Virus record (IMG/VR): IMGVR_UViG_3300031760_000016
Span: 43,455-107,454 of that record
Direction: 5' to 3' (one strand)
Origin: a virus
Lineage: Duplodnaviria > Heunggongvirae > Uroviricota > Caudoviricetes
DNA length: 64,000 nt
Shown here: piece after piece, positions 8,506 through 58,060 of the stretch
Position numbering within the stretch: position 1 is the stretch's first letter
How the letters are laid out: every line of letters begins with the position of its first letter
Translations under genes and position numbers: made by a program
The notes under the pieces: generated by a model
What the model was told of the DNA's origin: nothing
What the model saw: the letters and a program-made list of their open reading frames with translations, nothing else
The model's database searches: none

Positions 8506-8570
8506 TCTTCGGCTTAATTGATTCGCAAATACGATTGTGGAATTTTAAAAATCATGGAGGGTAATCAAGT

Positions 8571-8819: not shown

Positions 8820-8831
8820 GAATCAGTTTCT

Positions 8832-8864
8832 GGCGGCTGTCCGTTTTGGATAGCCGCCATTTTT
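8832..8864 (+). terminator. Rho-independent terminator
   Basis: ggcggct...agccgcc stem followed by atttttg. Confidence 0.55.
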
Positions 8865-8876
8865 GAACTAGGAGGG

Positions 8877-29791: not shown

Positions 29792-30832
29792 TCAATCCAC
29801 GATTGAACCTAGGGAGGAGTACACGGCGTAGGCGTCCATATCGGACCCCGTGCCCTTGAAGTAATCGATGATCAGGACGTCAATGCCCTGCGTGTGAAAG
29901 ACGCGCTTGACGTTTGTGTACATCGTGCTTTCATCGAAGATCGGCATGTACAGATGCGTAAAGCTCTGCTGTTTCAGCCATGCGATCGCCTCGCTGATTT
30001 TCGCGGCTTCCGCGTCGTCATATCTGCCGGATCGCAGACGTTGAAACTCGATTCCCGTCAGATGGGAAATCATACGACATGTGAAAAGCTTGCTGTTCAG
30101 TTCGCTGTCGATATAAAAAACCTTGCGGCCGGCGCGGAGAAGATCCACCGCGCAATTGAGCAGCATCATTGACTTGCCTTGCTTCTGTTCAGCACCGAAA
30201 ATGATGAGCTCGCCGCGCTCGATCATCACGTAGTTGTTCAGCGTCGGAAATTTGAACGGGAAAACCGCTGCCATGTCGGGATTCTGCCGGGCTTCGATTT
30301 CCGTCCAGTACTTCTCGATCACGTCTTTGTACTGCGGAATCTCGTTCGTTGTGGAAAACTCCATGATGACGTTGTCGAGCAGCGACGTGATCTGCTGTTC
30401 AATGTTGCTGCATTCGGAGTTAAAGCAGATGTTCTCGCACTCCACGAGCCTTTGGTAAGTGTGCCTCCTGAACGCCGCATCGATCACGGCGTTCGCGACC
30501 ATCATATAATCCTCCGGCTCGCTTCTGGCGATCAGCGACGCGTTGTCGAAGAGTTCCTGAAGCGACTGGTTGGTGATGATCGAGTTGACGTTCTCGCTCA
30601 CGTGCTCGGTGCCGCGTTTCATGTTGAGAAAGTTGATGATGTTGTAGGCGTCGATCTGCTCGATGCCCTTCTTGGCGAGTTCGCAGACGGCGTAGTAGAT
30701 GTAGGCGTTCTGCGGATTGGTAAAGTAGTTCGGTTTGAGTTGTTCTGAATGGAATGTCAGTTCCGGCGTCATGACCACCGAGGCGATTACGCCCGCCTCG
30801 GCTTCGACATTCTTGATGTCACCTACTGTCAA
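29792..30832 (-). CDS. dnaB: Replicative helicase DnaB, exon 1 (N-terminal domain + Walker A/B)
   Basis: 346 aa. GELIIFGAEQKQGKSMML (Walker A) and VLIIDYFKG (H2). The ORF terminates where DnaB should continue; the rest is in ORF 29207..29527. Confidence 0.7.
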   Translation of the reverse strand: MTVGDIKNVEAEAGVIASVVMTPELTFHSEQLKPNYFTNPQNAYIYYAVCELAKKGIEQIDAYNIINFLNMKRGTEHVSENVNSIITNQSLQELFDNASLIARSEPEDYMMVANAVIDAAFRRHTYQRLVECENICFNSECSNIEQQITSLLDNVIMEFSTTNEIPQYKDVIEKYWTEIEARQNPDMAAVFPFKFPTLNNYVMIERGELIIFGAEQKQGKSMMLLNCAVDLLRAGRKVFYIDSELNSKLFTCRMISHLTGIEFQRLRSGRYDDAEAAKISEAIAWLKQQSFTHLYMPIFDESTMYTNVKRVFHTQGIDVLIIDYFKGTGSDMDAYAVYSSLGSIVD

Positions 30833-37228: not shown

Positions 37229-37301
37229 AGCTGCCAACAGGAATCGAACCTGCAACACCCGGTTTACAGGACCGGTGCTCTGCCTGTTGAGCTATGGCAG
37301 C
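37229..37301 (-). tRNA. tRNA, anticodon loop CCUGUAA (probably Thr-UGU; position 33 is C, which is atypical)
   Basis: Manual fold: acceptor GCUGCCA/UGGCAGC, D arm GCUC/GAGC, anticodon stem CCGGU/ACCGG, T arm GCAGG-UUCGAUU-CCUGU. No encoded CCA. Confidence 0.55.
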
Positions 37302-37428
37302 ATAATCACTGTCTCCAACCTTTCCGACACCGCCATGGTTCAGCGCCTTACTCGTGAAGAGACAGTGATGACGGTTGTCGTTCTCTGTGGGGCGTCAGCC
37401 CACATCATCCAGCCGCAACGACTGGCGC

Positions 37429-37503
37429 TGGTGGAGAATATCGGATTCGAACCGACAGCCTTTAGCTTGCAAAGCTACTGCGCTACCGCTGCGCCAATTC
37501 CCC
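37429..37503 (-). tRNA. tRNA-Ala (UGC)
   Basis: Acceptor GGGGAAU/AUUCUCC with G3:U70, anticodon loop UUUGCAA, T loop UUCGAAU, encoded CCA. Confidence 0.7.
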
Positions 37504-37529
37504 AGAGGCTCCCGGTTTGGGAGCCATGT

Positions 37530-38648
37530 TTAAACTGTGAACCTGATCGGTCCGGTTTCCGGACACTTCTTGAGAACTACGCGGACAACGGGGTTTGAAT
37601 TCTCGGCCTCAGCTGCAGCGGCTCGTTTTTCCTCAGGGAGCTCATAGAAGTCATCTTCGTCCCATTTATCCATGTCGATGCCGTCCGTGACGACATACTC
37701 GCCGTCTACAATTGTTGCAAGAGCCGGCGTGAATGAAAAACCGAACTGATGTTTGCGTTCAAAGTTTCTCACGCTTACCCATTTGACGCTATTCATGTCA
37801 GTCATGTAGATCTTTTCGCGCCAGGCTTCATAGACAGAACCGTCCTTGCGAATGGCCATGATGTCGAAATAGAGGCAATCCGCCCTGGAAATATTCAGGT
37901 CGTTCAGGGTTTCCTTGAGCGTGTAGCCCTGATTGAGTTCAAAGGCGATGGCTCGGAGGTAGTCGTACGGCATGTCGACCGCGCCGGAAAGCGCAACCAG
38001 CTGGTCGATTTCTTCGGAATATTTGGGGTCGACCGTGTCTGTCAGGTACTCGCGAACCTCATCCTGACTGGGTGCTGTCATGGAGAAATGGTAGTGAAAG
38101 CGGCCCGGGCGGTTGAGCATGTAGGGACTCAGGTCGCTAAGGTTGTTGCAGGTGACGATGAAGAGCTTATGACCGCCCTCGATGCCGTCAAAGAGCGTCA
38201 ACATTTCGTCCTGCGGATTGTATTCCTTGGTTTTGGCAAAGGTCTTTTCGAACTCATCGAAGATGACCACGCAGTTCTGATCGATTGACGACAAAAAGTC
38301 AGAGATGCCCGGGATTGCCGTGTTCACGACGATGACCGGAAGCCCCTCCTGAATGGCGGCCTGAGCGAGCAGGCGGACGAACAGGCTCTTGCCAATGCCC
38401 TTCTGGCCGGACAGGAGCACGCCGAAGTTCCGCTTTGCGATGTGATAGGAACGCAAAACCTTGGCGACCTTCTCGTTGGACTTGCCGTAGATCTTTTCCT
38501 CTGTAACCGCCAGATCGTCGCGGTGGGTAAGGAAAAACCCCGACATATCGCTGAACTGGACGCCATATGAGGCGACCGGAAGTGCGTGATAGGTCTTTAC
38601 GGCGTCACCGTAGACCTGGAAACGGTTGCCGGAATTGACGATGTTCAT
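37530..38648 (-). CDS. AAA-family ATPase
   Basis: Walker A GQKGIGKS, Walker B VVIFDEFE, and NRPGRFHYHF (AAA second region of homology). Start moved to the internal ATG at 38648 (RBS AAGGAG 9 nt upstream) because the ORF-track start overlaps tRNA-Lys. Confidence 0.6.
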   Translation of the reverse strand: MNIVNSGNRFQVYGDAVKTYHALPVASYGVQFSDMSGFFLTHRDDLAVTEEKIYGKSNEKVAKVLRSYHIAKRNFGVLLSGQKGIGKSLFVRLLAQAAIQEGLPVIVVNTAIPGISDFLSSIDQNCVVIFDEFEKTFAKTKEYNPQDEMLTLFDGIEGGHKLFIVTCNNLSDLSPYMLNRPGRFHYHFSMTAPSQDEVREYLTDTVDPKYSEEIDQLVALSGAVDMPYDYLRAIAFELNQGYTLKETLNDLNISRADCLYFDIMAIRKDGSVYEAWREKIYMTDMNSVKWVSVRNFERKHQFGFSFTPALATIVDGEYVVTDGIDMDKWDEDDFYELPEEKRAAAAEAENSNPVVRVVLKKCPETGPIRFTV

Positions 38649-38671
38649 AGGCAAAAACTCCTTTATTTGAT

Positions 38672-38746
38672 TGGTGCGCCAGGTGGGAATCGAACCCACT
38701 GTGCCGGGATTAAAAGTCCCGTGCCTTACCGGTTGGCTACTGGCGC
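38672..38746 (-). tRNA. tRNA-Lys (UUU)
   Basis: Acceptor GCGCCAG/CUGGCGC, anticodon stem CGGGA/UCCCG with loop CUUUUAA, T arm GUGGG-UUCGAUU-CCCAC, encoded CCA. Confidence 0.7.
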
Positions 38747-38780
38747 GAAAGTGGAGGGCTTTTAAGCCCTCCGGGTAAAG

Positions 38781-38865
38781 CGGTCGTGGTAGGATTCGAA
38801 CCTACGGACGGTTTCCCGCCGGCAGTTTTCAAGACTGCTGTCATAAACCGCTCGGCCACACGACC
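38781..38865 (-). tRNA. tRNA-Ser (UGA), class II with long variable arm
   Basis: Acceptor GGUCGUG/CACGACC, D region GCCGAGCGGUU, anticodon stem GCAGU/ACUGC with loop CUUGAAA, long variable arm, T arm GUAGG-UUCGAAU-CCUAC. Confidence 0.65.
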
Positions 38866-45027: not shown

Positions 45028-45492
45028 TTAGTCCTCCGGCAATCCGGGGTAGGTGATCATGCCTGCATACTCAGTGAGCGTCTTCCCGTCGAAGTACCAG
45101 CACCAGTAGTTGCCGTCGGTGTCCTCAAGGAAAACCTTGGCACCCGGCTCGACAAACGGCGCGATGGCATTCATCCATCCTCCGGATTCATCGTTCTCAG
45201 GGCTATCGACTTCCCAGCCGAGGCGTCCGTTCTCAAGGCTGATGTCGGTGACATTGCCTTCGCTGTCCGTATACACCTGCCATTCCTTAGCCTCAAGCTC
45301 ATCCTCAAGCGTATCGTGCTCGGGGACCGGATGACGCCGGTACCATGCGTACTTCTCAGTCATGCGCCGTTCGAAATCCTGAATGGCGGCCAGAGCGGCG
45401 GCCTTGTTGGACGCTCTGATTCTGAAATTCACGCTGCCGGCAAAGACATCGCAACCCATATCATCACCACTTTCTCCATTTGAAGACTTCAA
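45028..45492 (-). CDS. Hypothetical protein
   Basis: 154 aa. Confidence 0.35.
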   Translation of the reverse strand: MKSSNGESGDDMGCDVFAGSVNFRIRASNKAAALAAIQDFERRMTEKYAWYRRHPVPEHDTLEDELEAKEWQVYTDSEGNVTDISLENGRLGWEVDSPENDESGGWMNAIAPFVEPGAKVFLEDTDGNYWCWYFDGKTLTEYAGMITYPGLPED

Positions 45493-46294
45493 TTTTGGGA
45501 TGAGAACCCGTGTACACGCTGTCCGTCGTGAACAGCCGGTCGATCAGACCCTCCGTCGTAAGCAGTTCGCTCTTCAGCACGGAATTCTCACAGTGCGAAC
45601 AGTAGGCGAAGACGCCTTTGACGCCCATGCGCCGCAGCGTCATCGCAGAGTAGTAGAACGTGTCGCCGTTGGTACAGATGTCATCGATCATGAGCACCGA
45701 TTTGCCGGTGATGTCCATTCCCTCCGGCACGATGACCTGAAGTCCGATGATCTTACCGGTTTCCCATATTCGCTCCTTGTCGCCAAAGGCGTAAACCTCT
45801 CCCGCATCGGCGTAGCGGCGAACCGCGCCCTTGTCGGGATAGTAGGGGAGGATGTCCTCCGCGCCGATCTGTGCACAGGCTTTGGCAATGTAGAAGCTGG
45901 GCTTGTCGACCATGATATTGTCGATCACCCCGGCGACCACGTCGGAATGGGGGTCAAAAACCCTGACGCAATGGAAGTTGAGGGAGTTGATGAATTTGCC
46001 AAAATACTTGAGGGTGAAAACCTCATCGTTGCTGCGGATGCGATCCATCCTGGCATTGGGAACATAGGGCAGTTCAAGGTCGATGGTCTCGAAGCGGTGG
46101 CCGCGAAGCCAGCCGACCACGTAGAACAGCGCCGCCATTTCTTCTTCGCCCTGATAGTTCCATCTCACGACGGGCGTGAAAATCTCGGCGGTTTCAACGA
46201 CGGACTTGATCGCGTCCTCGTTGATCTTCAGGTTCAGAGTGCCGTCCGGAAAGTGCTTGGAACAGTCGATGGGATACCCGTTGAGTGAAATCAT
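45464..46294 (-). CDS. Ribose-phosphate pyrophosphokinase (Prs)-family protein; candidate ADP-ribose pyrophosphokinase-like enzyme
   Basis: 276 aa. LPYVPNARMDRI ~ Prs IPYFGYARQDRR; SVLMIDDICTNGDT ~ CVLVDDMIDTGGT (PRPP-binding loop); VFAYCSHCE ~ VFAYATHPI. Confidence 0.65.
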   Translation of the reverse strand: MISLNGYPIDCSKHFPDGTLNLKINEDAIKSVVETAEIFTPVVRWNYQGEEEMAALFYVVGWLRGHRFETIDLELPYVPNARMDRIRSNDEVFTLKYFGKFINSLNFHCVRVFDPHSDVVAGVIDNIMVDKPSFYIAKACAQIGAEDILPYYPDKGAVRRYADAGEVYAFGDKERIWETGKIIGLQVIVPEGMDITGKSVLMIDDICTNGDTFYYSAMTLRRMGVKGVFAYCSHCENSVLKSELLTTEGLIDRLFTTDSVYTGSHPKIEVFKWRKW

Positions 46295-46303
46295 GCCAGC
46301 CTC

Positions 46304-46837
46304 CTAGTCTGCGTTGATGACGTCGATGCAGCACTGCTTCATGATTTGCAGCGCGGCCTTGTGGTTGTCTTCGGTGGTTCCGGCGCAGCAGGACGCGTCC
46401 ACGGCGATGGGAACGTCGGGATAGTGCGCCCGCAGCAGAAGCGCATTGGAAACCACACAAATATCCGTGCAAAGACCGATGATTTCGATGCGGTCGTAGT
46501 GCTCCTGATCGCAGATGTAGTTCGCCAGATTGACGCTGCCGAAGGTGCCCTTCAAAAACCCGTCGGCGGATTCCGGCAGGGCTTCCATGACGCGATGGTC
46601 AAGCTGCCAGCCCGGCGAGCGAACGACGCAGTGCTCGACCGGAATGTGTTCGCCCTCAAGCGTTTCCAGATAGTCGTCAAAGTGCGTGTCCTTCGTGTAG
46701 AACACATCGCCGTCCCAATCGCGAATCTTATCGCAAACCCTGGGGACGATGGCTTCCGCCTGCGCAGACCCCAGCGGACCGGAGATGAAGTCGTTCTGCA
46801 TGTCCACGACAATGAGCAGGTTGTGGCTCAAAAGCAT
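46304..46837 (-). CDS. Isochorismatase-family hydrolase, nicotinamidase (PncA)-like
   Basis: 177 aa. LIVVDMQNDFISG (catalytic Asp block) and IEIIGLCTDICVVSNALL (catalytic Cys block) as in PncA/isochorismatase. Confidence 0.65.
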   Translation of the reverse strand: MLLSHNLLIVVDMQNDFISGPLGSAQAEAIVPRVCDKIRDWDGDVFYTKDTHFDDYLETLEGEHIPVEHCVVRSPGWQLDHRVMEALPESADGFLKGTFGSVNLANYICDQEHYDRIEIIGLCTDICVVSNALLLRAHYPDVPIAVDASCCAGTTEDNHKAALQIMKQCCIDVINAD

Positions 46838-46948
46838 CAGTCCTTTCTTTCTTTTTTGGTAATGGTCATGCCATCCACAGAGCGCCGAAGCCTAAATTGA
46901 TGCGAGGCGCTGTGCCCTCAGAGCCGAGCTGCTTGGAAAATTAAACTG

Positions 46949-46981
46949 ATAAACTCAAGTTATTCCTTAACTTGAGTTTAT
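46949..46981. repeat. Perfect 14-bp inverted repeat with 5-nt spacer
   Basis: ataaactcaagtta-ttcct-taacttgagtttat. Confidence 0.8.
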
Positions 46982-47809
46982 TGGGTTAACTTTACAAGCA
47001 GTGAGCAGGGGGCGGAGCTTTACTTCGGATGTCATCGCGAAGCCTCGGTATCGAGCGTCTATGTATCAGACCGGAAATCAAAACACCTCATCACGAACGG
47101 TGCGCATAAGACGCGGGGCGTCAGCATTCATCTGCAGCTGGCCGGCGCTCTTCATCAATCGCCGCGCCTCTTACGGCTTTCTTAGCAATGCACATAATGT
47201 TCGAAACAAAGCGCCTTTCAATCCCTCAACACCGGAATCTGCATGGCATGTTGTGTGGCGAACGGATATATCTCTGTGTAATTCAAATTCGTTATTCGTA
47301 TATCCGCTGTTAATTTGTATGTCCGCCACATTGCTACAACGGCGTTGCCGCCGGTATAACCGCATCAGGTTGGTCGTGCTTTCCCTTTGGAAACAAAAAC
47401 TTGGTCTTGCATACATGGCAGCCACGTGGAGAACCGCTGCCCAATCTGCTTTTAATGGCGAACCTGAACCCGTGGATTTGCGTAGTGCATAACCCATAGT
47501 GGATACTCAGTATTGAATAGGAACAAACTGCCCGAGGGCTCAATCAATAGTCAATGCTGAATATTCAGTCAATCAATGGCAAATAGTCAATGAGAAAACG
47601 TCGGGACTTCGGCAGCGAATATTTCTACAGCCTTCGCTGCGGGAGCAGCCCGATCACAATCTTAACATTTCTTCATATTTACCTTGAAGAATATCGGGTA
47701 TCACCCGTCATATTAGCGGTGCTTTGTTTTGTTTTTTACTTCAGTCAGAGCACCGAATGACAGAAGAAAAGCAGGAATGCGGTTTTCGCCACATATGCAA
47801 GACCTTTAT

Positions 47810-47885
47810 TGGTTGCGGGGGAAGGATTCGAACCTTCGACCTTCGGGATATGAACCCGATAAGCTGACCGCTGCTCTACCCCGCA
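47810..47885 (-). tRNA. tRNA-Met (CAU)
   Basis: Acceptor UGCGGGG/CCCCGCA, D arm GAGC/GCUU, anticodon stem UCGGG/CCCGA with loop UUCAUAU, T arm GAAGG-UUCGAAU-CCUUC, encoded CCA. Confidence 0.65.
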
Positions 47886-47908: not shown

Positions 47909-48577
47909 TCAGTATGTAACCTCGATGACGGTGGTGGCGTTGGCAACCTGAATGGCCGCGTCCACCCTGGACTCAAAGTCCGTGATTTCCTTTTCCAGAG
48001 CCAGAATGACCTCGTGGATGCCCAGCGGGTCGACCAGCTCCAGCTCGTGATTGCGCTTGTACTCCTCGATGCCGCTGTTGTACGCGGCAGCGTCAGCCTT
48101 CTCCTTGGAACCGTACAGGCTGTTCATGGCGTTCTCGGCGCGGTCGTTGAGCTCCTTGCCGTTGGCGCGTTCGATTGCTGCAACCGCCTTGGAATACAAA
48201 ACCGTATACAGCCGCAGAAGCTCACGCTTTTCTTCCGTGCCGTGGTGCATCATCCATATAGCCTGTGCGATGGAATAATCCTTGCCGGCCACGGTGATGA
48301 TCTTCTCGGCGTTGTAGTGGTTGATCGCCGATTTGATGGCCGCCTGCCTGCGGATCAGGTCTGTGGCGGACTGGTGGGAGCTGATCGCCCGATCCTTGAA
48401 TTCCGCCATCGTCATGCTGTTCACCTTCTGGGAACTGTGTTCCTTGGTTGCGACGGGCACGCAGTTGTTGATGGCACTGTCGATGCGCTTACCGAGCGTT
48501 TTCAGCTCGCACAGCGCTTCATGCACCGTCATGGTTTCGCGGACATTGGATTCCATTTCAACACCTCTCATAGTCAT
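47909..48577 (-). CDS. Hypothetical protein
   Basis: 222 aa. Preceded by repeat element A. Confidence 0.45.
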   Translation of the reverse strand: MTMRGVEMESNVRETMTVHEALCELKTLGKRIDSAINNCVPVATKEHSSQKVNSMTMAEFKDRAISSHQSATDLIRRQAAIKSAINHYNAEKIITVAGKDYSIAQAIWMMHHGTEEKRELLRLYTVLYSKAVAAIERANGKELNDRAENAMNSLYGSKEKADAAAYNSGIEEYKRNHELELVDPLGIHEVILALEKEITDFESRVDAAIQVANATTVIEVTY

Positions 48578-48746
48578 TATTGATTGGGTTTGGTTTCACA
48601 ACCTGAATAGCTCTGAGGCAGGGTTTTACCAGGATCTGCGATCCGGATACCTGAAGTGCGCCGGAGCTTGTATCACATGAACTCGAACTTGTCAAGTCCT
48701 GTGAAGGATTTCTTGTCAGGATGACCATTAAGATTTGCGCTCTGAT

Positions 48747-48950
48747 GGAGCTTGGATTGCGAAATCTTCACTTGGTCGGAGCTGGGTACGGGGTCGCACG
48801 GCTGCAGTGATCTGCATGCGGCGTGCCCGCTGCTCGCCGAACTCTGGCGCCGTCGGTGCCCGTCGTCATCTCGGGTCCCTCCGTCGTCCCGACAATTTGT
48901 TACTCTGGATATGATCGCAGAGCACTCGCAAAGAGTAATGCGTTGTGAAA
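48747..48950 (-). repeat. Non-coding element A (paralog of element B upstream of the RT)
   Basis: Shares ggagcttggat at one end and tcccgacaatttgttactcYggatRtgatcRcagagca at the other with 53263..53450. The interior has diverged. Confidence 0.6.
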
Positions 48951-49475
48951 CGATAGTTTTGTTGTCTCCTTGCATAAATATAGAATCTGACAGCACCCCT
49001 GAAACAGCGGATGTCTCCGGCGTTTCAGCTATGCTCTAAACGCAGAATTTCGATTTTACCTTGACTTTACATTGAAAAACCTCCTTCGCTGAGTCGAAAA
49101 GCTGGCCTGTCGCGGCACCTGCACAGCGGAACATTCTTGAGTGATGAATGCGGAGCTGTGTACATCAGGGAGGTTAAAAGGAACCGTAGGTTCCTTTGAA
49201 AACCCTGACTATGCGTCACTCCGGTGAAGCACGCAGAGCTGCGTCTCAGAGGATATGTACTGATCCGCAAATGTTCGTGCCGCGACCTGCCGTGTCTGTC
49301 ATCTGCGTTTACCAGGGCTTTGAACCTGCTGCATTGTCCCGGGAATGCAGGCCGCATTACAGATTGCGGATGGGGAAGGGGAAAACCATCCGCAAAATGC
49401 CAGCTGGTCTGGAAACCTGATCACACGCCAGATGGAACGCTGTGAAGGCTTGGCGCATGTACCAGGGTGGAAAAG

Positions 49476-49943
49476 TCAGTCGTTGAGCAAGGCGATGCAC
49501 CTGTCAACAATCTCACGGGTCAGGCCGGTATTGAAATCCGTCTTGACCAGATGCTCCATGTGATCGCCCATATCGGAATCGTCGTCGAGTATGACATAGC
49601 GTTCTGTGTTGGGGTGGCGACTGAACCATGCGGTAATGTCGTCGCCGCGCTCGCTTCCGACATAAGGCGTTTGATCCGCCACCTCGATGCCGTGATGATG
49701 AAGCTGAGTGATCAGGTTGTCATATGCCGTAGGAATTCTGCGCCATGCGGATGAGATGACGATCCTCGCGCCGGTCTCATCCACCAACAGCTTGAGCAGG
49801 CGGAGCGCCCGGTCTTCCAACAGATCCTCTGCGTAGACCCGGACGCCCTCCTCTTTATACATTCTCTGTGCCCAGGTGCCGTTGTTCAAAACGCCATCGA
49901 CATCCAGGAAGATAACTTTTTCCAAACCCTCCAGTGGGATCAC
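49476..49943 (-). CDS. HAD-superfamily phosphatase-like protein
   Basis: 155 aa. VIFLDVDGVLNNG (HAD motif I DxDGT/V), then ISSAWR and ILDDDSD blocks. Confidence 0.5.
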   Translation of the reverse strand: MIPLEGLEKVIFLDVDGVLNNGTWAQRMYKEEGVRVYAEDLLEDRALRLLKLLVDETGARIVISSAWRRIPTAYDNLITQLHHHGIEVADQTPYVGSERGDDITAWFSRHPNTERYVILDDDSDMGDHMEHLVKTDFNTGLTREIVDRCIALLND

Positions 49944-51956: not shown

Positions 51957-53102
51957 TCAGGACTGTTCCTCAGATCTCAGCACGCTGCGGATCATCTTCA
52001 TGACGTTGACCCCGTGCTTTTCGTTAAACCACTTGATGAACTCCTCGACGTACTTCTTTTCGACCATCTTGTAGTAGCTGATCTGGCCGGAAAGCACATA
52101 GACGTCGTGGATATCCCACTTATCACCGCTCTGGTAATCCCTTATGAAGCTGGTGAGCGCCGCCTTGAGCTGGAGCTTCTTCTTGCGGCCGATGGTGATC
52201 TGATTGTCCCTGTTGAGCATGACGCCCAGATTCCAGTTCCTTCCGGCGCTGGATCCGTAGCGCGTCTTTTCGTCCTTCAGCTGGAACGGGGCGTTGAAGC
52301 TTGCCAGAACGGAATTGATATAGTCGCACATCTCCTTCGGATCGAAATCCTGCCTGTGCGAAAGCTGGATGTCATCGGCATACCGGGTGTAGACAAAACC
52401 CTTCTTGACCACGTCATTCATGATGCGGTGGTCGATGGGAACCATCATCAGGTTTGTCAGGGTGGGGGAGATCGGCGTTCCCTGCGGAAGCCCGCCGTCG
52501 AGGAAACACAGGCTCAGGGCTTTGGCAAGTTCATCCCTGCCGCCGGGAGCTTTGACGACTTCGCTGAACGGGAAGATGCGGGAAACCATATCGAACAGGA
52601 ATTCCTCAGTGGTGCTGCCGAAGAAATTGGAGAAATCCGTTTTCAGGAACCACCGGCTTTTGTTCTGCTGGTGGCGCTTGATGGCGTCGATGGTACTGCG
52701 CCCCTTGACGTAGGCGAAAGCCGCCGTGTGATACAGCGCACCGAAGTTGTTTTCCAGAATCGTGCGGAGCGTGCGCAGAGCGCCCATCAGTTCCGGCAGC
52801 GGTTCATCGATCTTGCGGTAACCCTTGGTGCGCTTGGGGATGTAAAACGTGTGGTAGAGCGAATGGCGATCCTTTTCAAACAGAAAAGCATAGGACGTAT
52901 TGAACGTGTGCAGAAGGCTGATGAGACCGGGGACGTTGAGATTGCGGGTGTAAGCCGGGCTGACCCAGTTCACCAGATGAGTCACCGTGCCGGTGATCTG
53001 GTGCTTGGGCGTGTCCCAGCCAAGCGGAACCCTGCCGAGAAGCACATCCTCAAACGAAAGCTGATGTGTTCTCGGCGTTTGCATGACGGTGATGTACGGC
53101 AT
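51957..53102 (-). CDS. Reverse transcriptase (retron/defense-RT-like, no maturase or endonuclease domain)
   Basis: RT motifs FLKTDFSNFFGS (motif 2), GLPQGTPISPTLTNL (motif 4), VYTRYADDIQL (YADD, motif 5), NLGV...ITIGRKKK (motifs 6-7). Start set to the ATG at 53102 with AAAGGAG 6 nt upstream; the ORF-track TTG start is at 53129. Confidence 0.75.
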   Translation of the reverse strand: MPYITVMQTPRTHQLSFEDVLLGRVPLGWDTPKHQITGTVTHLVNWVSPAYTRNLNVPGLISLLHTFNTSYAFLFEKDRHSLYHTFYIPKRTKGYRKIDEPLPELMGALRTLRTILENNFGALYHTAAFAYVKGRSTIDAIKRHQQNKSRWFLKTDFSNFFGSTTEEFLFDMVSRIFPFSEVVKAPGGRDELAKALSLCFLDGGLPQGTPISPTLTNLMMVPIDHRIMNDVVKKGFVYTRYADDIQLSHRQDFDPKEMCDYINSVLASFNAPFQLKDEKTRYGSSAGRNWNLGVMLNRDNQITIGRKKKLQLKAALTSFIRDYQSGDKWDIHDVYVLSGQISYYKMVEKKYVEEFIKWFNEKHGVNVMKMIRSVLRSEEQS

Positions 53103-53262
53103 ACGAACTCCTTTCTGATTGATCTGCAATCTGAATGCAGTGCGCGGTCTTCAGGGTAACCAGGAAGAGCTGAGGGATGTGATGATTGGGAGTCGAAACC
53201 CTGCCTGCTGAATCTCGCCGACTGCTGATGTGTCGGGAAAATGCGATCTTTTTCGACCTGTT

Positions 53263-53450
53263 GGAGCTTGGATGACCTAGAAGTGGTGGCTTTCAAGCTC
53301 GGACCGGTCGTCGCCGGATCAGCACCTGGGAGGAGAGCTCGATCGGCCGCCTTCCGCCGGCTGCCGCGGGTCGCCCCGTCTTCCCGACAATTTGTTACTC
53401 CGGATGTGATCACAGAGCATTGGGAAACCCAATAATGCATTGCAGACTTG
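53263..53450 (-). repeat. Non-coding element B, within the structured leader upstream of the RT
   Basis: Paralog of element A. Followed on the minus strand by hairpins, e.g. GCCCGCC-GGAA-GGCGGGC at 53450-53467 and AUUGGG-UUU-CCCAAU. Confidence 0.6.
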
Positions 53451-53472
53451 CCCGCCTTCCGGCGGGCTTGAA

Positions 53473-54237
53473 TCACATTTGAATCATGGACCGGAACAGT
53501 TCCAGAAGACCTTCGTGCTCATGGGTTTTTGAGGTTTCCAGACACCAGATGTGCTCGCCGGAATCAATTTCGATCACAGGGGCGTCCGGCTTGATGCGAA
53601 TCATGGGGTGGATGAGAAACACATCCCGGCACAAACCATGTGTCATGGAGCCAAAGTTGTATATGAGGATATGCCCTGCGTCCGAAACCCCGGTTCGAGT
53701 CATGATGTTCGAGTGGGGAACTTCGCCGATGGCCTGACTGAGCGCCGGGAGATACTCACCGTCCGGAACCTCGGGTACATCCACAAGCTCAGACTCGCTG
53801 GGGATCGAAACCTTGCAGGTGACCGTCTGCGCCCTGCCAAATTCCTTAATACTTCCGGGCGGAACGGCGATCGGAACCTCTCGGTCGATCAGCATGGCCA
53901 GCTCTTCGTCGTCAAAGAAGGTAAGGAAGCCGTCATACACGCCGTCCGGGCATCTGTCATACTGATGCATCGGAGTGTATGTAAAATCCTTGCCGCCGTT
54001 CAGCCACTGGAAGAGGTTGGAATGGGGAAAGTAGTTGTTGCCATAAGCGCGTTTTGCGGAAGACGGGCTTTCGAATTCGCGCCTGTCGAAGGAACGCCTG
54101 CCGACAGACCTCATGGCGAAAAGGTCATTGGAATCGGAAACCTTTTTCCAGAGAATGTCATCGTTGTTATCACCCAGATTGACGCCGATGTTCAGCTTGG
54201 TTCCCAGCGGCAGTTCACTGATCGTCAATATGCTCAC
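53473..54237 (-). CDS. Hypothetical protein
   Basis: 254 aa, no recognisable motif. Lies between the E1-like gene and the RT leader. Confidence 0.45.
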   Translation of the reverse strand: MSILTISELPLGTKLNIGVNLGDNNDDILWKKVSDSNDLFAMRSVGRRSFDRREFESPSSAKRAYGNNYFPHSNLFQWLNGGKDFTYTPMHQYDRCPDGVYDGFLTFFDDEELAMLIDREVPIAVPPGSIKEFGRAQTVTCKVSIPSESELVDVPEVPDGEYLPALSQAIGEVPHSNIMTRTGVSDAGHILIYNFGSMTHGLCRDVFLIHPMIRIKPDAPVIEIDSGEHIWCLETSKTHEHEGLLELFRSMIQM

Positions 54238-54259: not shown

Positions 54260-54955
54260 TCAGAACGCGTCCAGCTGGTAGGTGAAGGCGTCCAACAGGA
54301 TCAGCTTCTTGATGCCGTTGCCCTTGGCAAAGTTAATGAAGTTGGAAACCCCCAGCGCCACGATCGCCTTGACCGTGGAGCAGACGGACAGGGTCAGGTT
54401 GCAGGCGGAAACCGGCGTTTCGGCCTTGGCTTCATCGTGGGTGAACTGCATCGAGTTCAGAAACGCTTCCACCATCCTGCGATCCTCCCAGTTGGCGGCG
54501 TAATGCTGGGCGTCGGTCAGCCGCATCCGGAAGTCGAACATGCCCTTGATGAACAGGTTGTCCTTGTTGGCGGTGGCGATCTCGCGGCGCAGATCGATGT
54601 TGTCCACGCAGAGGAACACATAGCCGCTCAGCTTCTGGCCGACATAGCCCTTCTCAACCAGTTTCAAATCCCGGTCGATATCGGGATTTATCTTGTGCAG
54701 ATACTCGGCCAGCGCCTGAACCTTGGTCTTGCCGATGTCTTCCTGAGTGAACAGCTGGTTGGCAATGTTGTGGGGCTCGACGAAATCGAAGTCGTACAGG
54801 GTGATGCGGGTGACGCCGTAGCGCACCAGATTCTCAGCGACCGTGGAGCCGATCGCGCCGCAGCCGATGATGTGGATGCGCTCAGGGCACTTTTCAGGCT
54901 GGAAAAACTCGTAGCTCTTTGCCAAATCGATCATGAATTCAATCCTCCCTGTCAA
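54260..54955 (-). CDS. ThiF/MoeB/E1-like adenylyltransferase
   Basis: 231 aa. IHIIGCGAIGSTVAENLVRYGVTRITLYDFDFVEPHNIANQ is the Rossmann GxGxxG plus the D.D.VE.SNLNRQ ThiF signature. Confidence 0.7.
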   Translation of the reverse strand: MTGRIEFMIDLAKSYEFFQPEKCPERIHIIGCGAIGSTVAENLVRYGVTRITLYDFDFVEPHNIANQLFTQEDIGKTKVQALAEYLHKINPDIDRDLKLVEKGYVGQKLSGYVFLCVDNIDLRREIATANKDNLFIKGMFDFRMRLTDAQHYAANWEDRRMVEAFLNSMQFTHDEAKAETPVSACNLTLSVCSTVKAIVALGVSNFINFAKGNGIKKLILLDAFTYQLDAF

Positions 54956-55856
54956 ATCCGATCTTGGACTTCTTGCCGAAGATCATTTCGTCGTAGTCGG
55001 TCTCATCGTCCAGATAGAGGCCGGGGTACTGGCCGCTGCCGCCGAAATCCTTTTTCTGCTTGGATTTGGATTTCTTGCTGGTCGGGTAGTTCGGTACATT
55101 CGTACGGGGATAGTCATATCCGCCATAGTTACCATAGACGCCGTAGTTGCCAGAGCCATAGTTGTACGCGGAGTTGATCGAAGCGACATTCCCGGTGGTC
55201 TTGGCGGCCGGCGTGCTGACCTTGACCACGTCCTTGGCGTCGCTCAGGAACGCATCGAAATCGCAATCCTCATCGTAGATTCCGATGTCGACGTCCTTGT
55301 CCTCATACAGGGTGTTGTTCTTCAGGTCGTAAACCTTGATGTTGCGCTCGTTGCGCTTGTTGAAGATGCCGAAGATGTAGAATGCGTCCTCAGCGACCTG
55401 AGCCAGAATGCTTTCCCGGTGCTGATCGTCCACAGCGGACGGGCTGGTGGCCATGTTGACGTGGGAATGCCCATGGAATCGGATCGCGTTCGCGGTATCG
55501 TCATCCATCTCCATGAGCCACTTGGTGTAGCCTTCGAAATCCGTGTTGACCGTCGTCCCGGTCACCACCTGAGGGTAAACCATGATGTCGTGAATGACGA
55601 AGCAGTCGTCGGCCAGGCGCTCCACGGTGCCATGCCAGCCAACCTCGCTGGTAAAGCTGTCGACCAGCGTCTTCATCTTGATATAAGCCCGGGGCGTAAA
55701 CAGAACGGAAACCCCGGTGTCATCCGCGCCCTGATAGGTGAAGTTCTTCTTGTAGTTGATGCTGCCGTCGCTCATGCGGTGCTTGCGCAGCATCTCGTTG
55801 AACTCCTGGGTCATCTGGGCGATCAGTGCCTCAGTGAACTTGATCGGCTTGGACAT
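54939..55856 (-). CDS. JAB/MPN(+) metalloprotease-like protein with Gly/Tyr/Asn-rich low-complexity tail
   Basis: 305 aa. HSHVNMATSPSAVD fits the JAMM zinc motif HxHx7Sx2D. C-terminal region GNYGVYGNYGGYDY is low complexity. Confidence 0.6.
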   Translation of the reverse strand: MSKPIKFTEALIAQMTQEFNEMLRKHRMSDGSINYKKNFTYQGADDTGVSVLFTPRAYIKMKTLVDSFTSEVGWHGTVERLADDCFVIHDIMVYPQVVTGTTVNTDFEGYTKWLMEMDDDTANAIRFHGHSHVNMATSPSAVDDQHRESILAQVAEDAFYIFGIFNKRNERNIKVYDLKNNTLYEDKDVDIGIYDEDCDFDAFLSDAKDVVKVSTPAAKTTGNVASINSAYNYGSGNYGVYGNYGGYDYPRTNVPNYPTSKKSKSKQKKDFGGSGQYPGLYLDDETDYDEMIFGKKSKIGFDRED

Positions 55857-57337
55857 TATTCGTTGCCTCCTTCTGCATTCTCATTCGAATTGGGATCCTG
55901 AGCGTTCAGCCACTCGACGGCTTCCTGAGGGGAGACGTTCTTGCCGTCGGGAAGTTCGATAACCTTCTCAGACGTGGTGAACAGCTGGTCGAGGAACGGA
56001 CCGAAGGTGACGCCTTCGGCGATGTTGATGCTGCCGGCGGAAGCGATGCACTGCATGATCGCGCCGATCGGATCGCCATCGCGAAGTCTTTCCTCGATCA
56101 GCGGGCGATTATTCCCGATGCAGGAGTGCCGATTGAGATGGGTATTGGGAATATAGGAGTTATAATCATCGCCGAAGTAGTGGTTGCGCTCGGTGTCAAC
56201 CATGCCCCGCATATCGATGGCAAAGTAGGCACACATGCGAACCTTGAGGACGGGCTCATCGCTGAAGAGCGCATCCATGAGCTTGCGGCGAACGGCTTTC
56301 TCTCTGAAGAACGGACTGTAGTCGCGTTCATTCCAGATGTGGGAGAAGTTGTTATCAACGAACCGGGAATACATTTCCGGATCGAAATTTACGAGGTAGG
56401 TCTTGATGTGGAAATGGATCATCTGCTCGTACGTGTTGATGATTTCCACGGATTTGTTTCCGATGAAAAACTCTGCGAGCTCATTGGACTCGCAGCCCTG
56501 AGCAATGATGGCCTTCAGGCCGGTCTGGGTGATCCGATAATCTTCGAGCTGCTTGATCAGCCTGCGATAGTTTGCAATAATATCATCGATCTGTACGTTG
56601 GTGTTGTCGATGTCACGCTCAATGGACTGCAAGCGGGCACGATTAGCACGCTTTTCAAAACCGTTGAGCATGCTGCGGATGAGCGTTTCACGCAGGTTGA
56701 AGTTGTCAGCGATGGCAGCCATGGTTTCAATGAAACTCTGAGATCCTTTCTTCTGAAGCGATTCCAGAAGCGAAATCTCAATGGCTTCCAGGGGCTTGTC
56801 CTTGAAATACCAGGGCATGTAGCGGGGAATGAAGGACTGGATGGCGTGGTAACTCTTTATCGTCATCCGCTTCACGAAGATGTAGGAGAGCTTGACCTCG
56901 GGGACGATGAACACAACGGTCGTGATGCCGAGCTTTTCGAAATACTGCTCGACGTCTACCAGTTCCTCTGCGGAATTGAAACCCGTTCGATTGAGTCCCT
57001 TGAAATTCTTGCGGATGCAATCCAGAGCGAATTCCGGATCGTCGTTGTCAACGGACACGGCGTAGACCGTATCCGAACGGTTCCTGGAACCGAAGATGGC
57101 GTCGAAGATGCGGTAGAAGGGGTTGTTTTCGTAGTCGTACTTGGTGTAGCCAGCGCGGAGATTGCGGAACGTAACCCGGTTGTTGCCCAATTCGATGCGC
57201 TTGAGCAGAAGTGCCCGCAACACCGCTACAAAGGTCACATCTTCGCGATACAGGTCACCTCCGACGGACTCGAACAGATTGCCGGCGTGTTCGGAAGTGA
57301 GCATGAGCTCGCTGCTTCTGATGCACTGATTGAACAT
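55856..57337 (-). CDS. Hypothetical protein (493 aa)
   Basis: Long ORF with no recognised motif. Its start overlaps the stop of the JAB gene. Confidence 0.45.
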   Translation of the reverse strand: MFNQCIRSSELMLTSEHAGNLFESVGGDLYREDVTFVAVLRALLLKRIELGNNRVTFRNLRAGYTKYDYENNPFYRIFDAIFGSRNRSDTVYAVSVDNDDPEFALDCIRKNFKGLNRTGFNSAEELVDVEQYFEKLGITTVVFIVPEVKLSYIFVKRMTIKSYHAIQSFIPRYMPWYFKDKPLEAIEISLLESLQKKGSQSFIETMAAIADNFNLRETLIRSMLNGFEKRANRARLQSIERDIDNTNVQIDDIIANYRRLIKQLEDYRITQTGLKAIIAQGCESNELAEFFIGNKSVEIINTYEQMIHFHIKTYLVNFDPEMYSRFVDNNFSHIWNERDYSPFFREKAVRRKLMDALFSDEPVLKVRMCAYFAIDMRGMVDTERNHYFGDDYNSYIPNTHLNRHSCIGNNRPLIEERLRDGDPIGAIMQCIASAGSINIAEGVTFGPFLDQLFTTSEKVIELPDGKNVSPQEAVEWLNAQDPNSNENAEGGNE

Positions 57338-57418
57338 TTTTTGTCACCTCTGCTTCATTAAGAATGCCCCCGGAGACGAGTCCGGGGGCAGTGCGAATGG
57401 GAATCGAAACCAGATCCC

Positions 57419-58060
57419 TTACAGAACCTGGATGTTGTCGCGGATCGCGGCCAGCTCGGCTTCGATCTCAGCGGCGGCGGCGGCGAACTGGGCTTCCACC
57501 TTGTTCAGCTGCAGGATGCCGGTGCCGATGGTCTCCTCAGCCCACTTCTTGGCGTCGGTGACGTCCTCGGGCAGGAGCATGGTCACGATGGCCTTGCCGT
57601 CAGCGTTGGCCTGAGGGGCGAAGCTCACGCCGATGGGGTTGATGCTGCCGGTGCCCTTGCTGGTCACACCCACACGGAAAACCTCCTGCTTGGTGCTGCC
57701 CTCGGTCTCGAACAGCTTCAGGGCGTTGGGGCGGTACTTGCCCAGGGTCTTGATGGAATCCAGATCCGCATCGGATTCCACGACCACGGCGCGGCCGGCG
57801 ACCTTGATCTTGGCAGCGTTGTCGGCCTTGACGACGCTCAGCAGGTAGCAGCTGGTGGTGATGCCCAGATCGGCGAAGGTGCGATCCAGCATGCCGGGCT
57901 GCAGAGTAGCGCCGTCCAGCATCAGCTGACCCATGGAGTAGTCGACACCGTTCTCTTCCAGAGCCTGGCGCAGGGTGTTGTTCTCGTCGACGATGACACG
58001 GTTGCGATTGGTGGTGTTGCCGATGGTGACATTGATCATACTATGTACCTCCGTAATCAA
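57419..58060 (-). CDS. Hypothetical protein with possible N-terminal ubiquitin-like beta-grasp domain
   Basis: 213 aa. First ~75 aa (MINVTIGNTTNRNRVIVDENNTLRQALEENGVDYSMGQLMLDGATLQ...CYLLSVVKADNA) have ThiS/MoaD/ubiquitin-like periodicity. The C-terminus is Ala-rich. Confidence 0.3.
   Translation of the reverse strand: MITEVHSMINVTIGNTTNRNRVIVDENNTLRQALEENGVDYSMGQLMLDGATLQPGMLDRTFADLGITTSCYLLSVVKADNAAKIKVAGRAVVVESDADLDSIKTLGKYRPNALKLFETEGSTKQEVFRVGVTSKGTGSINPIGVSFAPQANADGKAIVTMLLPEDVTDAKKWAEETIGTGILQLNKVEAQFAAAAAEIEAELAAIRDNIQVL

What the first reader, a model, noticed from the sequence alone, without database searches (positions are those of the whole stretch)
51957..53472. Reverse transcriptase with a ~340-nt structured non-coding leader in a phage replication-block moron
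A 381-aa RT with clean motifs 2, 4, 5 (YADD) and 6-7 but no maturase or endonuclease domain and no template repeat or variable region. It has a proper RBS/ATG and sits after a 340-nt gene-free stretch rich in hairpins (GCCCGCC-GGAA-GGCGGGC, AUUGGG-UUU-CCCAAU, CGGG-GCGA-CCCG). That is the architecture of retrons or ncRNA-dependent defense RTs (DRT2- or DRT9-like) rather than a group II intron or DGR. The leader has a paralog (element A) upstream of an unrelated 222-aa gene. This points either to a shared regulatory leader or to two ncRNA copies. A defense-type RT with its ncRNA carried by a phage, next to E1/JAB genes, is not a described arrangement.
Basis: partly seen in the sequence, partly recalled or inferred. 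Interest (0 to 1): 0.85.

Follow-up and report, generated by a model that had tools for sequence, protein, structure and literature searches.

The report
Phage retron with several template RNAs
A large gut phage carries a retron-type reverse transcriptase served by two or more copies of a conserved, previously uncatalogued structured RNA, always encoded next to a ubiquitin-like conjugation gene set, an arrangement not found in the literature or in Rfam.

Summary
Window 51957-53102 (-) encodes an intact 381-aa reverse transcriptase (RT). Its best matches are all retron RTs, not group II intron, DGR or DRT enzymes.

The 370-nt gene-free leader holds a 326-nt RNA unit (53122-53447, -) with retron msr-msd anatomy:
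- a 9-bp terminal helix (a1/a2);
- an invariant unpaired G right after a1;
- two covarying hairpins and an invariant GUAAC;
- a long, hypervariable, U-poor body;
- a conserved AG before a2, which ends 20 nt before the RT start codon.

"Element A" (48593-48951, -) is a second complete unit with compensatory a1/a2 changes.

In 80 related viral contigs a covariance model finds 194 units, all on the RT strand. The usual layout is one unit upstream and one or two directly downstream of the RT. No Rfam family matches them.

The RT always follows a conserved cassette of a Ubl-like protein, an E2-like protein, a JAB peptidase and an E1 enzyme. This order holds even at 38% RT identity.

Most likely the RT primes from the invariant G and makes two or three different RT-DNAs. 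That step is inferred, and the biological role is unknown. I class it as a new variant of a known kind.

The parts
51957..53102 (-). Retron-clade reverse transcriptase, 381 aa, with YADD and a family-specific N-terminal extension of about 60-70 aa
   Evidence: ORF and RBS. RVT_1 64 bits. PADLOC RT_II-A 166 bits. NCBIfam retron_St85_RT 185.8 bits, below the 235 cut-off. Best PDB matches are retron Ec83, Ec78, St85-family, Ec67 and Ec86 RTs.
53122..53447 (-). ncRNA unit 1 (326 nt), a retron-like msr-msd. a1 53439-53447; predicted priming G 53438; hairpin 1 53419-53433; hairpin 2 53398-53417; invariant GUAAC 53394-53398; variable U-poor body; CAG 53131-53133; a2 53122-53130.
   Evidence: Covariance model R1 70.6 bits, E 5.5e-15. 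The MFE fold closes with a1/a2. Covariation. a1/a2 search. Base counts before a2.
53450..53467 (-). GC-rich hairpin (GCCCGCC-GGAA-GGCGGGC) immediately 5' of unit 1 and 3' of the upstream gene's stop codon. Possibly a terminator or processing or protective hairpin. It is not part of the conserved unit.
   Evidence: Sequence. Analogous hairpins are visible before the a1 of many units in other loci. It was not called as an intrinsic terminator because it lacks a T run.
48593..48951 (-). ncRNA unit 2 ('element A', 359 nt). a1 48942-48951 (GUUUCACAAC); G 48941; a2 48593-48602 (GUUGUGAAAC), preceded by CAG.
   Evidence: R1 66 bits, E 7.3e-14. The MFE fold closes with a1/a2, z -4.2. a1/a2 is compensatory relative to unit 1.
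49203..49255 (-). Possible degenerate third unit, with a hairpin-2-like element and GUGAC in place of GUAAC
   Evidence: R1 12.8 bits, E 0.58, which is not significant. By-eye comparison with the consensus. No matching a2 was found.
49295..49363 (-). Twister-P1 self-cleaving ribozyme candidate, same strand, about 340 nt upstream of unit 2
   Evidence: Rfam RF03160 59.1 bits (gathering score 67.2), E about 1e-12, full-length match with the conserved core.
54260..54955 (-). E1-like ThiF-family adenylyltransferase (231 aa), conserved directly upstream of the ncRNA and RT
   Evidence: Pfam ThiF 86 bits. PADLOC E1-E2 models up to 69 bits. Present in 76 of 80 RT loci at 50-75% identity. 34 of 34 ThiF-seeded loci carry the RT.
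54939..55856 (-). JAB/MPN+ metallopeptidase-like protein (305 aa)
   Evidence: The HSHx7SxxD motif is read directly from the translation. Conserved in 74 of 80 loci and at 38% identity in the distant locus L174. No HMM hit.
55856..57337 (-). Conserved 493-aa protein with a possible UBC/RWD (E2-like) fold and an invariant Cys406
57419..58060 (-). Conserved 213-aa protein whose N-terminal ~75 aa look ThiS/MoaD/ubiquitin-like
   Evidence: Translation, judged by eye only. Found in 69 of 80 loci. No HMM hit.
53473..54237 (-). 254-aa DUF6273 protein lying between the E1 gene and the ncRNA. It is a variable insert, present in only 33 of 80 loci.
   Evidence: Pfam DUF6273 27.7 bits. Distribution.

Best explanation
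This is a phage-borne retron-like element. One catalytically intact retron-clade RT is served by several co-oriented msr-msd-type RNA units: two clear units in this window, and usually three in relatives.

Each unit has these parts, in order:
- an 8-13-bp terminal helix formed by its 5' and 3' ends (a1/a2);
- an invariant unpaired G immediately 3' of a1;
- a conserved recognition module of two hairpins plus GUAAC;
- a 180-290-nt fast-evolving, U-poor, weakly structured body;
- a conserved (U/C)AG just before a2.

Inferred mechanism: the RT binds the conserved 5' module, uses the 2'-OH of the invariant G as primer, and copies the body starting next to a2. Each unit would then yield its own G/T-rich RT-DNA (msDNA) joined to the RNA.

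Shown here: RT family placement, RNA structure and covariation, copy architecture, strict RNA-RT linkage, and synteny with the Ubl/E2-like/JAB/E1 cassette.

Inferred only: priming at the G, cDNA synthesis and its end points, and any function. My best guess at the role is that the RT-DNAs act during infection or lysogeny in phage-host or phage-phage conflict, as a decoy or sensor, possibly together with the adjacent Ubl-conjugation genes.
For: RT placement:
- PADLOC's best hits are all retron RT models, 166 to 94 bits.
- NCBIfam's best hit is retron_St85_RT for all 28 family members.
- The 12 best PDB sequence matches are retron RTs.
- The most conserved residues of retron regions X (H) and Y (G) are retained (definitions in PMC7736814).

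RNA structure:
- The 5' module is 90% paired, 13 of 14 pairs have compensatory changes, and slide controls give 37-50%.
- a1/a2 is 95% paired, 10 of 10 pairs are compensatory, and slide controls give 31-40%.
- Contiguous a1/a2 pairing averages 9.1 bp against 5.9 bp for shuffled a1.
- The base after a1 is G in 88 of 91 units.
- The base before a2 is G in 87 of 91 and the one before that is A in 75 of 91. These bases were not used to find a2.
- For the upstream units examined, a2 ends 5-20 nt before the RT start codon.

Linkage to the RT:
- All 194 model hits in 80 loci are on the RT strand.
- 42 of 43 IMG/VR stretches found by an RNA-only pattern are genuine, RT-associated units; the two without RT or ThiF in the stored stretch are L190 (real units, RT beyond the stretch end) and L200, the chance match.
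- The design persists at 38% RT identity and in six loci the model cannot reach.
Against: - No RT-DNA has been observed.
- The RT scores below NCBIfam's curated cut-off (185.8 against 235).
- The retron signature triplets differ: NAXXH is AIKRH and VTG is NLG.
- The template body is longer than usual and shows no conserved long msd hairpin. Partner search gives 6.2 bp against 6.2 bp for the control. Mean folding z is only -1.2. RNAalifold predicts no body pairs.
- No known retron effector is adjacent.
- More than one ncRNA per RT was not found described for retrons in the papers searched.
Confidence: 0.7

Rival explanations
1. The RT and RNA units work as a non-retron templated cDNA system. 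One version is DRT2-like repeated or rolling-circle copying of the long body, producing a new gene or a repetitive DNA, rather than a branched msDNA.
For: The body is long (180-290 nt), weakly structured and compositionally biased, unlike a canonical msd hairpin. Sense-strand open frames are slightly longer than in shuffles, 0.78 against 0.69 of body length.
Against: Drt2 HMM scores 45 bits against a cut-off of 390, while retron models score 166-186 bits. Only 19 of 91 bodies have a fully open sense frame (13 of 91 antisense). Orthologous bodies differ by many indels, which argues against coding. The a1/a2 helix with a flanking invariant G is the retron priming geometry.
Confidence: 0.1
2. The units act as RNAs only and are never reverse-transcribed. 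They could be cis-regulatory 5' leaders, or protein-binding or scaffold sRNAs of an RNA-gene island.
For: Unit 1 and unit 2 each end just upstream of an ORF. Downstream units sit in a region rich in tRNA genes, a tmRNA and a drum RNA.
Against: Downstream units are often directly tandem, with no ORF between them; a2 of one lies about 15 nt from a1 of the next. Phages with a homologue of the 222-aa gene lack a unit before it. Units occur only with this RT. The RT active site is invariant across the family, which argues for a templated substrate.
Confidence: 0.1
3. The RT belongs to a group II intron or a diversity-generating retroelement (DGR).
For: A weak group_II_RT_mat match of 81 bits. GenBank 'retron-type' labels are often wrong for intron RTs (PMC12350094).
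Against: 81 bits against a cut-off of 300, and well below the retron scores. No group II intron RNA family matches at the Rfam gathering threshold in the window, or at E<=5 around the RT. Neither unit has a TR/VR pair anywhere in the 64-kb window. The C-terminal region aligns to retron RT thumb regions.
Confidence: 0.02
4. The units are non-autonomous mobile retroelements that the RT copies and re-inserts, which would explain the variable copy number (1 to 8) and scattered positions.
For: Copy number and spacing vary between phages; L012 has 8 units and L007 has 5. A twister ribozyme lies next to unit 2.
Against: Copies within one genome have highly diverged bodies, so they are not recent insertions. 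Position-specific signatures are shared across phages, which points to old, maintained paralogues. All copies keep the RT's orientation and lie within a few kb of it.
Confidence: 0.03

Closest known systems
Bacterial retrons, especially the St85/Sen2 (type II-A) and Ec78/Ec83 (type I-A) RT lineages
   Same: The RT is closest to these families. The ncRNA is on the same strand and ends just before the RT start. The RNA ends are complementary (a1/a2) with a conserved unpaired G after a1. Short covarying msr hairpins are present. The H of region X and the G of region Y are conserved.
   Different: - It is encoded in the conserved backbone of ~100-130-kb gut phages, not in a bacterial defence island or a P2/P4 hotspot.
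- Each RT has 2-3 (up to 8) ncRNA units, lying on both sides of the gene.
- Units are 250-375 nt long, with a weakly structured hypervariable body instead of a long msd hairpin.
- VTG is replaced by NLG, and NAXXH by AIKRH.
- The RT has an N-terminal extension of about 60-70 aa.
- No ATPase/HNH or nucleoside deoxyribosyltransferase effector is present.
- The RT scores below the curated family cut-off.
Stand-alone (msr-msd)-RT cassettes of retron RT clades 2 and 11 (Mestre et al. 2020, PMC7736814)
   Same: A retron RT plus ncRNA without a recognisable retron effector.
   Different: Those cassettes are described with a single ncRNA in bacterial genomes. Here there are multi-unit arrays in phages, with an invariant neighbouring Ubl/E2-like/JAB/E1 cassette.
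RT-1 to RT-19 RNA motifs (Weinberg et al. 2017, PMC5737381; included in Rfam)
   Same: Structured RNA motifs found next to bacterial RT genes, some of which were proposed to be retron RNAs.
   Different: None of them matches these units even at E<=5-10. [quoted passage not shown]
Bil and CBASS-type bacterial ubiquitin-like conjugation modules (E1, E2, JAB, Ubl), compared with the neighbouring cassette
   Same: An E1-like ThiF protein, a JAB motif protein, a protein with weak UBC/RWD-fold similarity (including BilB E2), and a possible Ubl, all in one co-oriented cassette.
   Different: The cassette is phage-encoded. The E2-like protein is 493 aa with extra domains and a long coiled coil. No PADLOC or NCBIfam model other than E1 matches. 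It is strictly followed by an RT with ncRNAs, a combination that none of the literature searches I ran turned up.

Membership tests
Retron (RT + msr-msd ncRNA) | The RT falls in the retron/retron-like clade | tested here: met
   The best HMMs and the best solved structures are all retron RTs. The scores are below NCBIfam's curated cut-offs, so it is an outlying lineage. No tree was built.
Retron (RT + msr-msd ncRNA) | [quoted passage not shown] | tested here: inconclusive
   The alignment to Ec83 RT places AIKRH opposite NAKIH. H144 is invariant in the family, but N and A are not kept.
Retron (RT + msr-msd ncRNA) | [quoted passage not shown] | tested here: not met
   The aligned triplet is N291-L292-G293, invariant in the family. 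Only the G is retained.
Retron (RT + msr-msd ncRNA) | A contiguous same-strand ncRNA whose 5' and 3' ends pair (a1/a2) | tested here: met
   Pairing of 8-13 bp, 95% of cells paired, 10 of 10 pairs compensatory. Also seen in loci beyond the model's reach.
Retron (RT + msr-msd ncRNA) | A conserved unpaired branching G at the 3' end of a1 | tested here: met
   G follows a1 in 88 of 91 non-redundant units and is invariant in the 40-sequence alignment. Its use as a primer is not testable here.
Retron (RT + msr-msd ncRNA) | msr folds into short stem-loops | tested here: met
   Two hairpins, with 13 of 14 pairs covarying.
Retron (RT + msr-msd ncRNA) | msd folds into one or two long stable hairpins | tested here: not met
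   No conserved closing stem. Body folding z averages -1.2. No consensus body pairs among 11 orthologous units.
Retron (RT + msr-msd ncRNA) | Produces msDNA joined by a 2'-5' bond to the msr G | not testable with these tools
   Needs expression and nucleic-acid analysis.
Retron type II-A (St85/Sen2-like) | Associated nucleoside deoxyribosyltransferase-like effector, and an RT above the family threshold | tested here: not met
   No PADLOC, Pfam or NCBIfam hit of that kind in any neighbouring gene. The RT scores 185.8 bits against a cut-off of 235.
DRT2 | Drt2-family RT, and an ncRNA whose concatenated cDNA encodes a stop-free ORF | tested here: not met
   Drt2 HMM scores 45 bits against 390. 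Only 19 of 91 bodies have a fully open sense frame (13 of 91 antisense).
DGR | Template repeat and variable repeat pair with adenine-specific differences | tested here: not met
   Neither unit has a second copy of its body in the 64-kb window, at word sizes 7-11. The rest of the 116-kb genome was not examined.
Group II intron | Intron RNA domains flanking the ORF, and an RT/maturase above threshold | tested here: not met
   No group II family in the Rfam scans. group_II_RT_mat scores 81 bits against 300.
Bil-like Ubl conjugation system (neighbouring cassette) | E1 adenylating enzyme | tested here: met
   ThiF 86 bits. PADLOC E1-E2 models match residues 24-96.
Bil-like Ubl conjugation system (neighbouring cassette) | JAB/MPN+ peptidase | tested here: inconclusive
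   The HxHx7Sx2D motif is present and conserved, but no profile hit was found.
Bil-like Ubl conjugation system (neighbouring cassette) | E2 (UBC fold with a catalytic Cys) and a Ubl substrate | tested here: inconclusive

The most novel reading that the evidence does not exclude
The Ubl/E2-like/JAB/E1 cassette, the RT and its array of RNA units form one phage-encoded system. In it, RT-made DNA is functionally coupled to ubiquitin-like conjugation. For example, an RT-DNA/RT complex could sense or recruit a target for the conjugation machinery, or could regulate that machinery. The system would serve counter-defence or exclusion of competing phages. If so, it would be a retron type with a new effector class, and the first natural retron to use several templates.
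Probability: 0.2. Interest if true: 0.9.

Novelty: new variant of a known kind. Interest (0 to 1): 0.72.

Why it matters
Retrons are known as bacterial anti-phage systems with one RT, one template RNA and one toxic effector. This lineage is abundant: more than 5000 homologues at E<=1e-10, over 180 IMG/VR stretches and 59 MAG contigs. The sources named in the records are animal digestive tracts.

It puts the retron design in the conserved backbone of large phages. It multiplies the template RNA to 2-3 or more units with long, fast-evolving bodies. It also replaces the known effectors with an invariant neighbouring ubiquitin-like conjugation cassette.

If the units are reverse-transcribed, three things follow:
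- A natural case of one retron RT using several templates, which bears on multiplexed, long-donor retron editing.
- A testable question of what phages do with RT-DNA: decoy, sensor, or weapon against other phages.
- A possible link between two immune-type modules, a retron and Bil-like conjugation.

It also adds a well-supported RNA family that is missing from Rfam.

Tried and rejected
- **Near-identical phages in INPHARED:** none. The best protein match there is 38% identical.
- **Rfam:** gathering and permissive scans of the window and 12 loci found no family for the units.
- **A conserved long msd closing stem:** pairing of the purine-rich segment after GUAAC..UUG is no better than for shuffled sequence. 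The helix that the MFE fold of unit 1 shows there is therefore not a family feature.
- **Body structure by z-score:** weak.
- **Stop-free frames in the body (DRT2-like):** no convincing signal.
- **TR/VR or any target of the bodies within the window:** none.
- **A mid-body motif** (CCAACAG / CACAAY, with ATTG..CACAAT in some unit classes): present in subsets, but not enriched overall against shuffles, so I do not rely on it.
- **Promoter and terminator scan:** not above background.
- **Unit as a leader of the 222-aa gene:** rejected.
- **Literature:** four full-text searches for phage-encoded or multi-ncRNA retrons and one for an RT with E1/JAB found no description. A sixth search failed on a term-length error. 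Subscription-only papers are not covered.
- **Isolate genomes:** the GTDB scan for a chromosomal or isolate context returned only MAG contigs with inconsistent bin taxonomy. The host therefore remains unassigned, with Clostridia suspected.
Full report
**Observation.** On the minus strand, 51957-53102 encodes a 381-aa protein that starts at an ATG 8 nt after an AGGAG. Pfam finds only RVT_1, at residues 88-283. The upstream gene, a 254-aa DUF6273 protein, stops at 53473. That leaves 370 nt (53103-53472) with no plausible ORF. Gene callers on three public copies of this contig also left the stretch empty. The reported paralogue exists: 48872-48932 matches 53367-53427 at 85% identity (alignment). 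It lies inside a ~900-nt gene-free stretch, just upstream of the 222-aa ORF 47909-48577.

**What the RT is.** PADLOC's 25 best models are all retron RTs: RT_II-A 166 bits, then III-A 148 and I-A 147. NCBIfam's best model is retron_St85_RT at 185.8 bits, under its cut-off of 235. The rival families score far lower:

| Model | Bits | Cut-off |
|---|---|---|
| retron_St85_RT | 185.8 | 235 |
| group II RT/maturase | 81 | 300 |
| Drt2 | 45 | 390 |

All 28 aligned family members behave the same way. Against PDB sequences, the 12 best matches are retron RTs: Ec83, Ec78, the St85 family, Ec67, Ec86 and Kva2.

In those alignments the retron region X motif NAXXH reads AIKRH, and the region Y triplet VTG reads NLG. 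The residues that Mestre et al. call the most conserved (H and G; PMC7736814) are kept, but the full signatures are not. A-D-D of YADD is invariant and the Y nearly so. The first ~60-70 residues are a family-specific extension.

I therefore treat this as an outlying retron-clade lineage, not a member of a curated retron type.

**What the leader is.** A core of the leader recurs about 300-390 nt upstream of the RT start in related viral contigs, and again just downstream of the RT. A 40-sequence alignment (A3) shows, in order:
- a variable 8-13-nt segment;
- an invariant G;
- a variable hairpin;
- a GCU-closed hairpin;
- an invariant GUAAC followed by A-rich UUG.

On the two hairpins, 90% of cells pair and 13 of 14 pairs show changes on both sides. 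Slid-partner controls give 37-50%.

A covariance model built from this alignment (R1) scores the leader 70.6 bits and element A 66 bits. Nothing else in the window is significant apart from a 19-bit fragment at 47020-47055.

**Terminal helix.** The variable segment before the G pairs with a segment 250-375 nt downstream.
- In unit 1, GUCUGCAAU (53439-53447) pairs with AUUGCAGAU (53122-53130).
- In element A, GUUUCACAAC (48942-48951) pairs with GUUGUGAAAC (48593-48602).

This is a fully compensatory change between the two copies.

Across 141 distinct units, contiguous pairing anchored at the G averages 9.1 bp, against 5.9 bp for shuffled a1. On a 60-sequence a1/a2 alignment, 95% of cells pair and 10 of 10 pairs are compensatory; slide controls give 31-40%.

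That count is partly circular, because a2 was located by its complementarity to a1. Two features were not used in the search and are still conserved. The base before a2 is G in 87 of 91 units and the one before that is A in 75 of 91. The base after a1 is G in 88 of 91.

For the upstream units examined, a2 ends 5-20 nt before the RT start codon. Six loci that the model cannot reach still show a1-G ... (U/C)AG-a2-RBS-RT. So does the most distant phage relative, at 38% RT identity.

This matches the defining anatomy of a retron msr-msd RNA as summarised in PMC8632793 and PMC7736814.

**Copy architecture.** In 80 IMG/VR loci, R1 finds 194 hits, all on the RT strand.
- 39 loci have three units and 26 have two.
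- One locus has eight units, and seven have none detectable by the model.
- The common layout is one unit at -290 to -390 of the RT start, one at +4 to +50 after the RT stop, and a third about 290 nt further on. In that layout the last two are directly tandem.
- Position-specific signatures are shared between phages. One group has a1 CUGUAAC upstream, CCUGUAAU first downstream and UUUGCAAU second downstream. The copies therefore look like old, maintained paralogues.

In this window, the second unit is separated from the RT by about 3 kb of small genes. A weak, non-significant third unit-like stretch (49203-49255) and a twister-P1 ribozyme candidate (49295-49363) lie upstream of it.

A scan of IMG/VR with an RNA-only pattern returned 43 stretches. 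Forty-two are genuine units and one is a chance match inside a coding region. RT or ThiF lies next to the match in 41 of the 43; in L190 the units are real but the RT would lie beyond the end of the stored stretch.

The only relatives with a homologue of the 222-aa gene have no unit in front of it. Together with the tandem copies, this rules out a shared regulatory leader.

**The body.** Between GUAAC..UUG and the AG-a2 end lie 180-290 nt. This stretch is U-poor (10-20% U) and G/C-rich at first, then A/C-rich. It is highly variable and full of indels, even among orthologous units. I found:
- no conserved closing stem;
- only weak excess folding energy, mean z -1.2;
- no consensus body pairs;
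- no stop-free frame signal;
- no similarity to anything else in the window.

Here the element departs from canonical retrons, whose msd forms a long hairpin.

**Context.** The window is a phage. It has a DNA polymerase, an intron-containing ribonucleotide reductase, an endolysin, an integrase, tRNAs and two group I introns. The source contig is 116,091 bp. RT relatives in the GTDB genome set are all MAG contigs from gut, rumen, termite, chicken or rabbit samples, and their bin taxonomy is mutually inconsistent. None is in an isolate genome.

**Neighbouring cassette.** Upstream of the RT, and co-oriented with it, lies a cassette found in 69-76 of 80 loci:

| Protein | Window coordinates (-) | Assignment | Evidence |
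|---|---|---|---|
| p213 | 57419-58060 | N-terminus looks ThiS/Ubl-like | by eye only |
| p305 | 54939-55856 | JAB/MPN+ peptidase | HSHx7SxxD motif |
| p231 | 54260-54955 | ThiF/E1 | Pfam 86 bits; PADLOC E1-E2 |

All 34 loci seeded with the E1 protein carry the RT downstream. The order E2-like, JAB, E1, ncRNA, RT also holds in MT835544.1, where the RT is only 38% identical. No known retron effector is present.

I cannot tell whether this linkage is functional or only reflects a conserved phage backbone. I found no member of the lineage without it, but every example belongs to one phage group.

**Comparison with what is known.**
- Rfam 15, which includes the RT-1 to RT-19 motifs, matches none of the units even at E<=5-10.
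- Four full-text searches for phage-encoded or multi-ncRNA retrons, and one for an RT together with E1/JAB, found nothing comparable. The library lacks many subscription papers.

**Verdict.** The DRT, 'moron' and shared-leader options are not supported. The most likely mechanism is G-primed reverse transcription of two or three distinct templates by one RT. This rests on anatomy and family placement only. The function is open.

I rate it a new variant of a known kind and of high interest, because of three features:
- the phage setting;
- the multi-template arrays with atypical long bodies;
- the invariant ubiquitin-like conjugation neighbours.

Noticed in passing
window 49295-49363 (-): Twister-P1 self-cleaving ribozyme candidate (RF03160). 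It scores 59.1 bits, just under the gathering score of 67.2, with E about 1e-12, a full-length match and a conserved core. It lies on the same strand, between the HAD gene and ncRNA unit 2, so it might set a 5' end for the downstream RNA.
   Followed up: partly
window 54260-58060 (-): A conserved four-gene cassette: a Ubl-like protein, a 493-aa possible E2-like protein of otherwise unmatched fold, a JAB-motif protein and a ThiF/E1. It looks like a phage-encoded Bil-like conjugation system. It precedes the RT in nearly every relative.
   Followed up: partly
window 29525-29804 (-) and 21269-22174 (-): Two group I introns at the Rfam gathering threshold. The second lies among ribonucleotide reductase ORF fragments (19773-21281, 22144-22971) and contains a 233-aa ORF (21308-22009), possibly a homing endonuclease.
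   Followed up: no
window 46838-47812 (-): About 970 nt without a convincing gene. It holds an R1 fragment hit (47020-47055, 19 bits, E 0.016; hairpin 1 and 2-like plus GUAA), a 34-nt near-perfect inverted repeat (46929-47001), and a weak RAGATH-27 match (47717-47800, 29.8 bits) beside a tRNA (47813-47885).
   Followed up: partly
window 45464-46837 (-): An isochorismatase-family protein (Pfam 76 bits) next to a 276-aa protein with a weak phosphoribosyl-synthetase-associated match. The pair is conserved downstream of the RT region in about 21-24 relatives. It is reminiscent of phage NAD-salvage or anti-defence gene pairs, but this was not tested.
   Followed up: no
window 49476-49943 (-): A 155-aa HAD_SAK_2 protein (the HAD domain of 'Swiss Army Knife' RNA repair proteins, Pfam 104.6 bits) between the RT and unit 2. 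It is absent from the 80 related loci.
   Followed up: no
window 47909-48577 (-): The 222-aa gene after unit 2 matches phrog_1491, annotated 'tail fiber protein' (152 bits). It sits in a non-structural region, and homologues occur in only two related loci. The PHROG label may be unreliable.
   Followed up: partly
L124, L127, L128, L133 (match spans 8001-9359, 1275-2657, 8001-9383, 8001-9410): In four MAG contigs the RT match spans 1359-1410 nt instead of about 1135 nt. This suggests an insertion, possibly an intron, inside the RT gene.
   Followed up: no
L012 5504-10775; L064 5451-6000: L012 carries eight ncRNA units spread over about 5 kb around its RT. L064 has two divergent tandem units upstream of its RT. 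Copy number is therefore plastic.
   Followed up: partly
L002 10211-10629; L040 8682-8787; the tRNA hits in the 11 loci: The region downstream of the RT and ncRNA array is an RNA-gene island in relatives. It holds clusters of tRNAs, a tmRNA (L002) and a drum RNA (L040). The window's tRNAs (37229-38865 and 47813-47885) fit the same layout.
   Followed up: no
window 13146-14075 (-): A tyrosine integrase (phrog_1, 172 bits). The phage may therefore be temperate, which bears on whether the RT element acts in lysogens.
   Followed up: no
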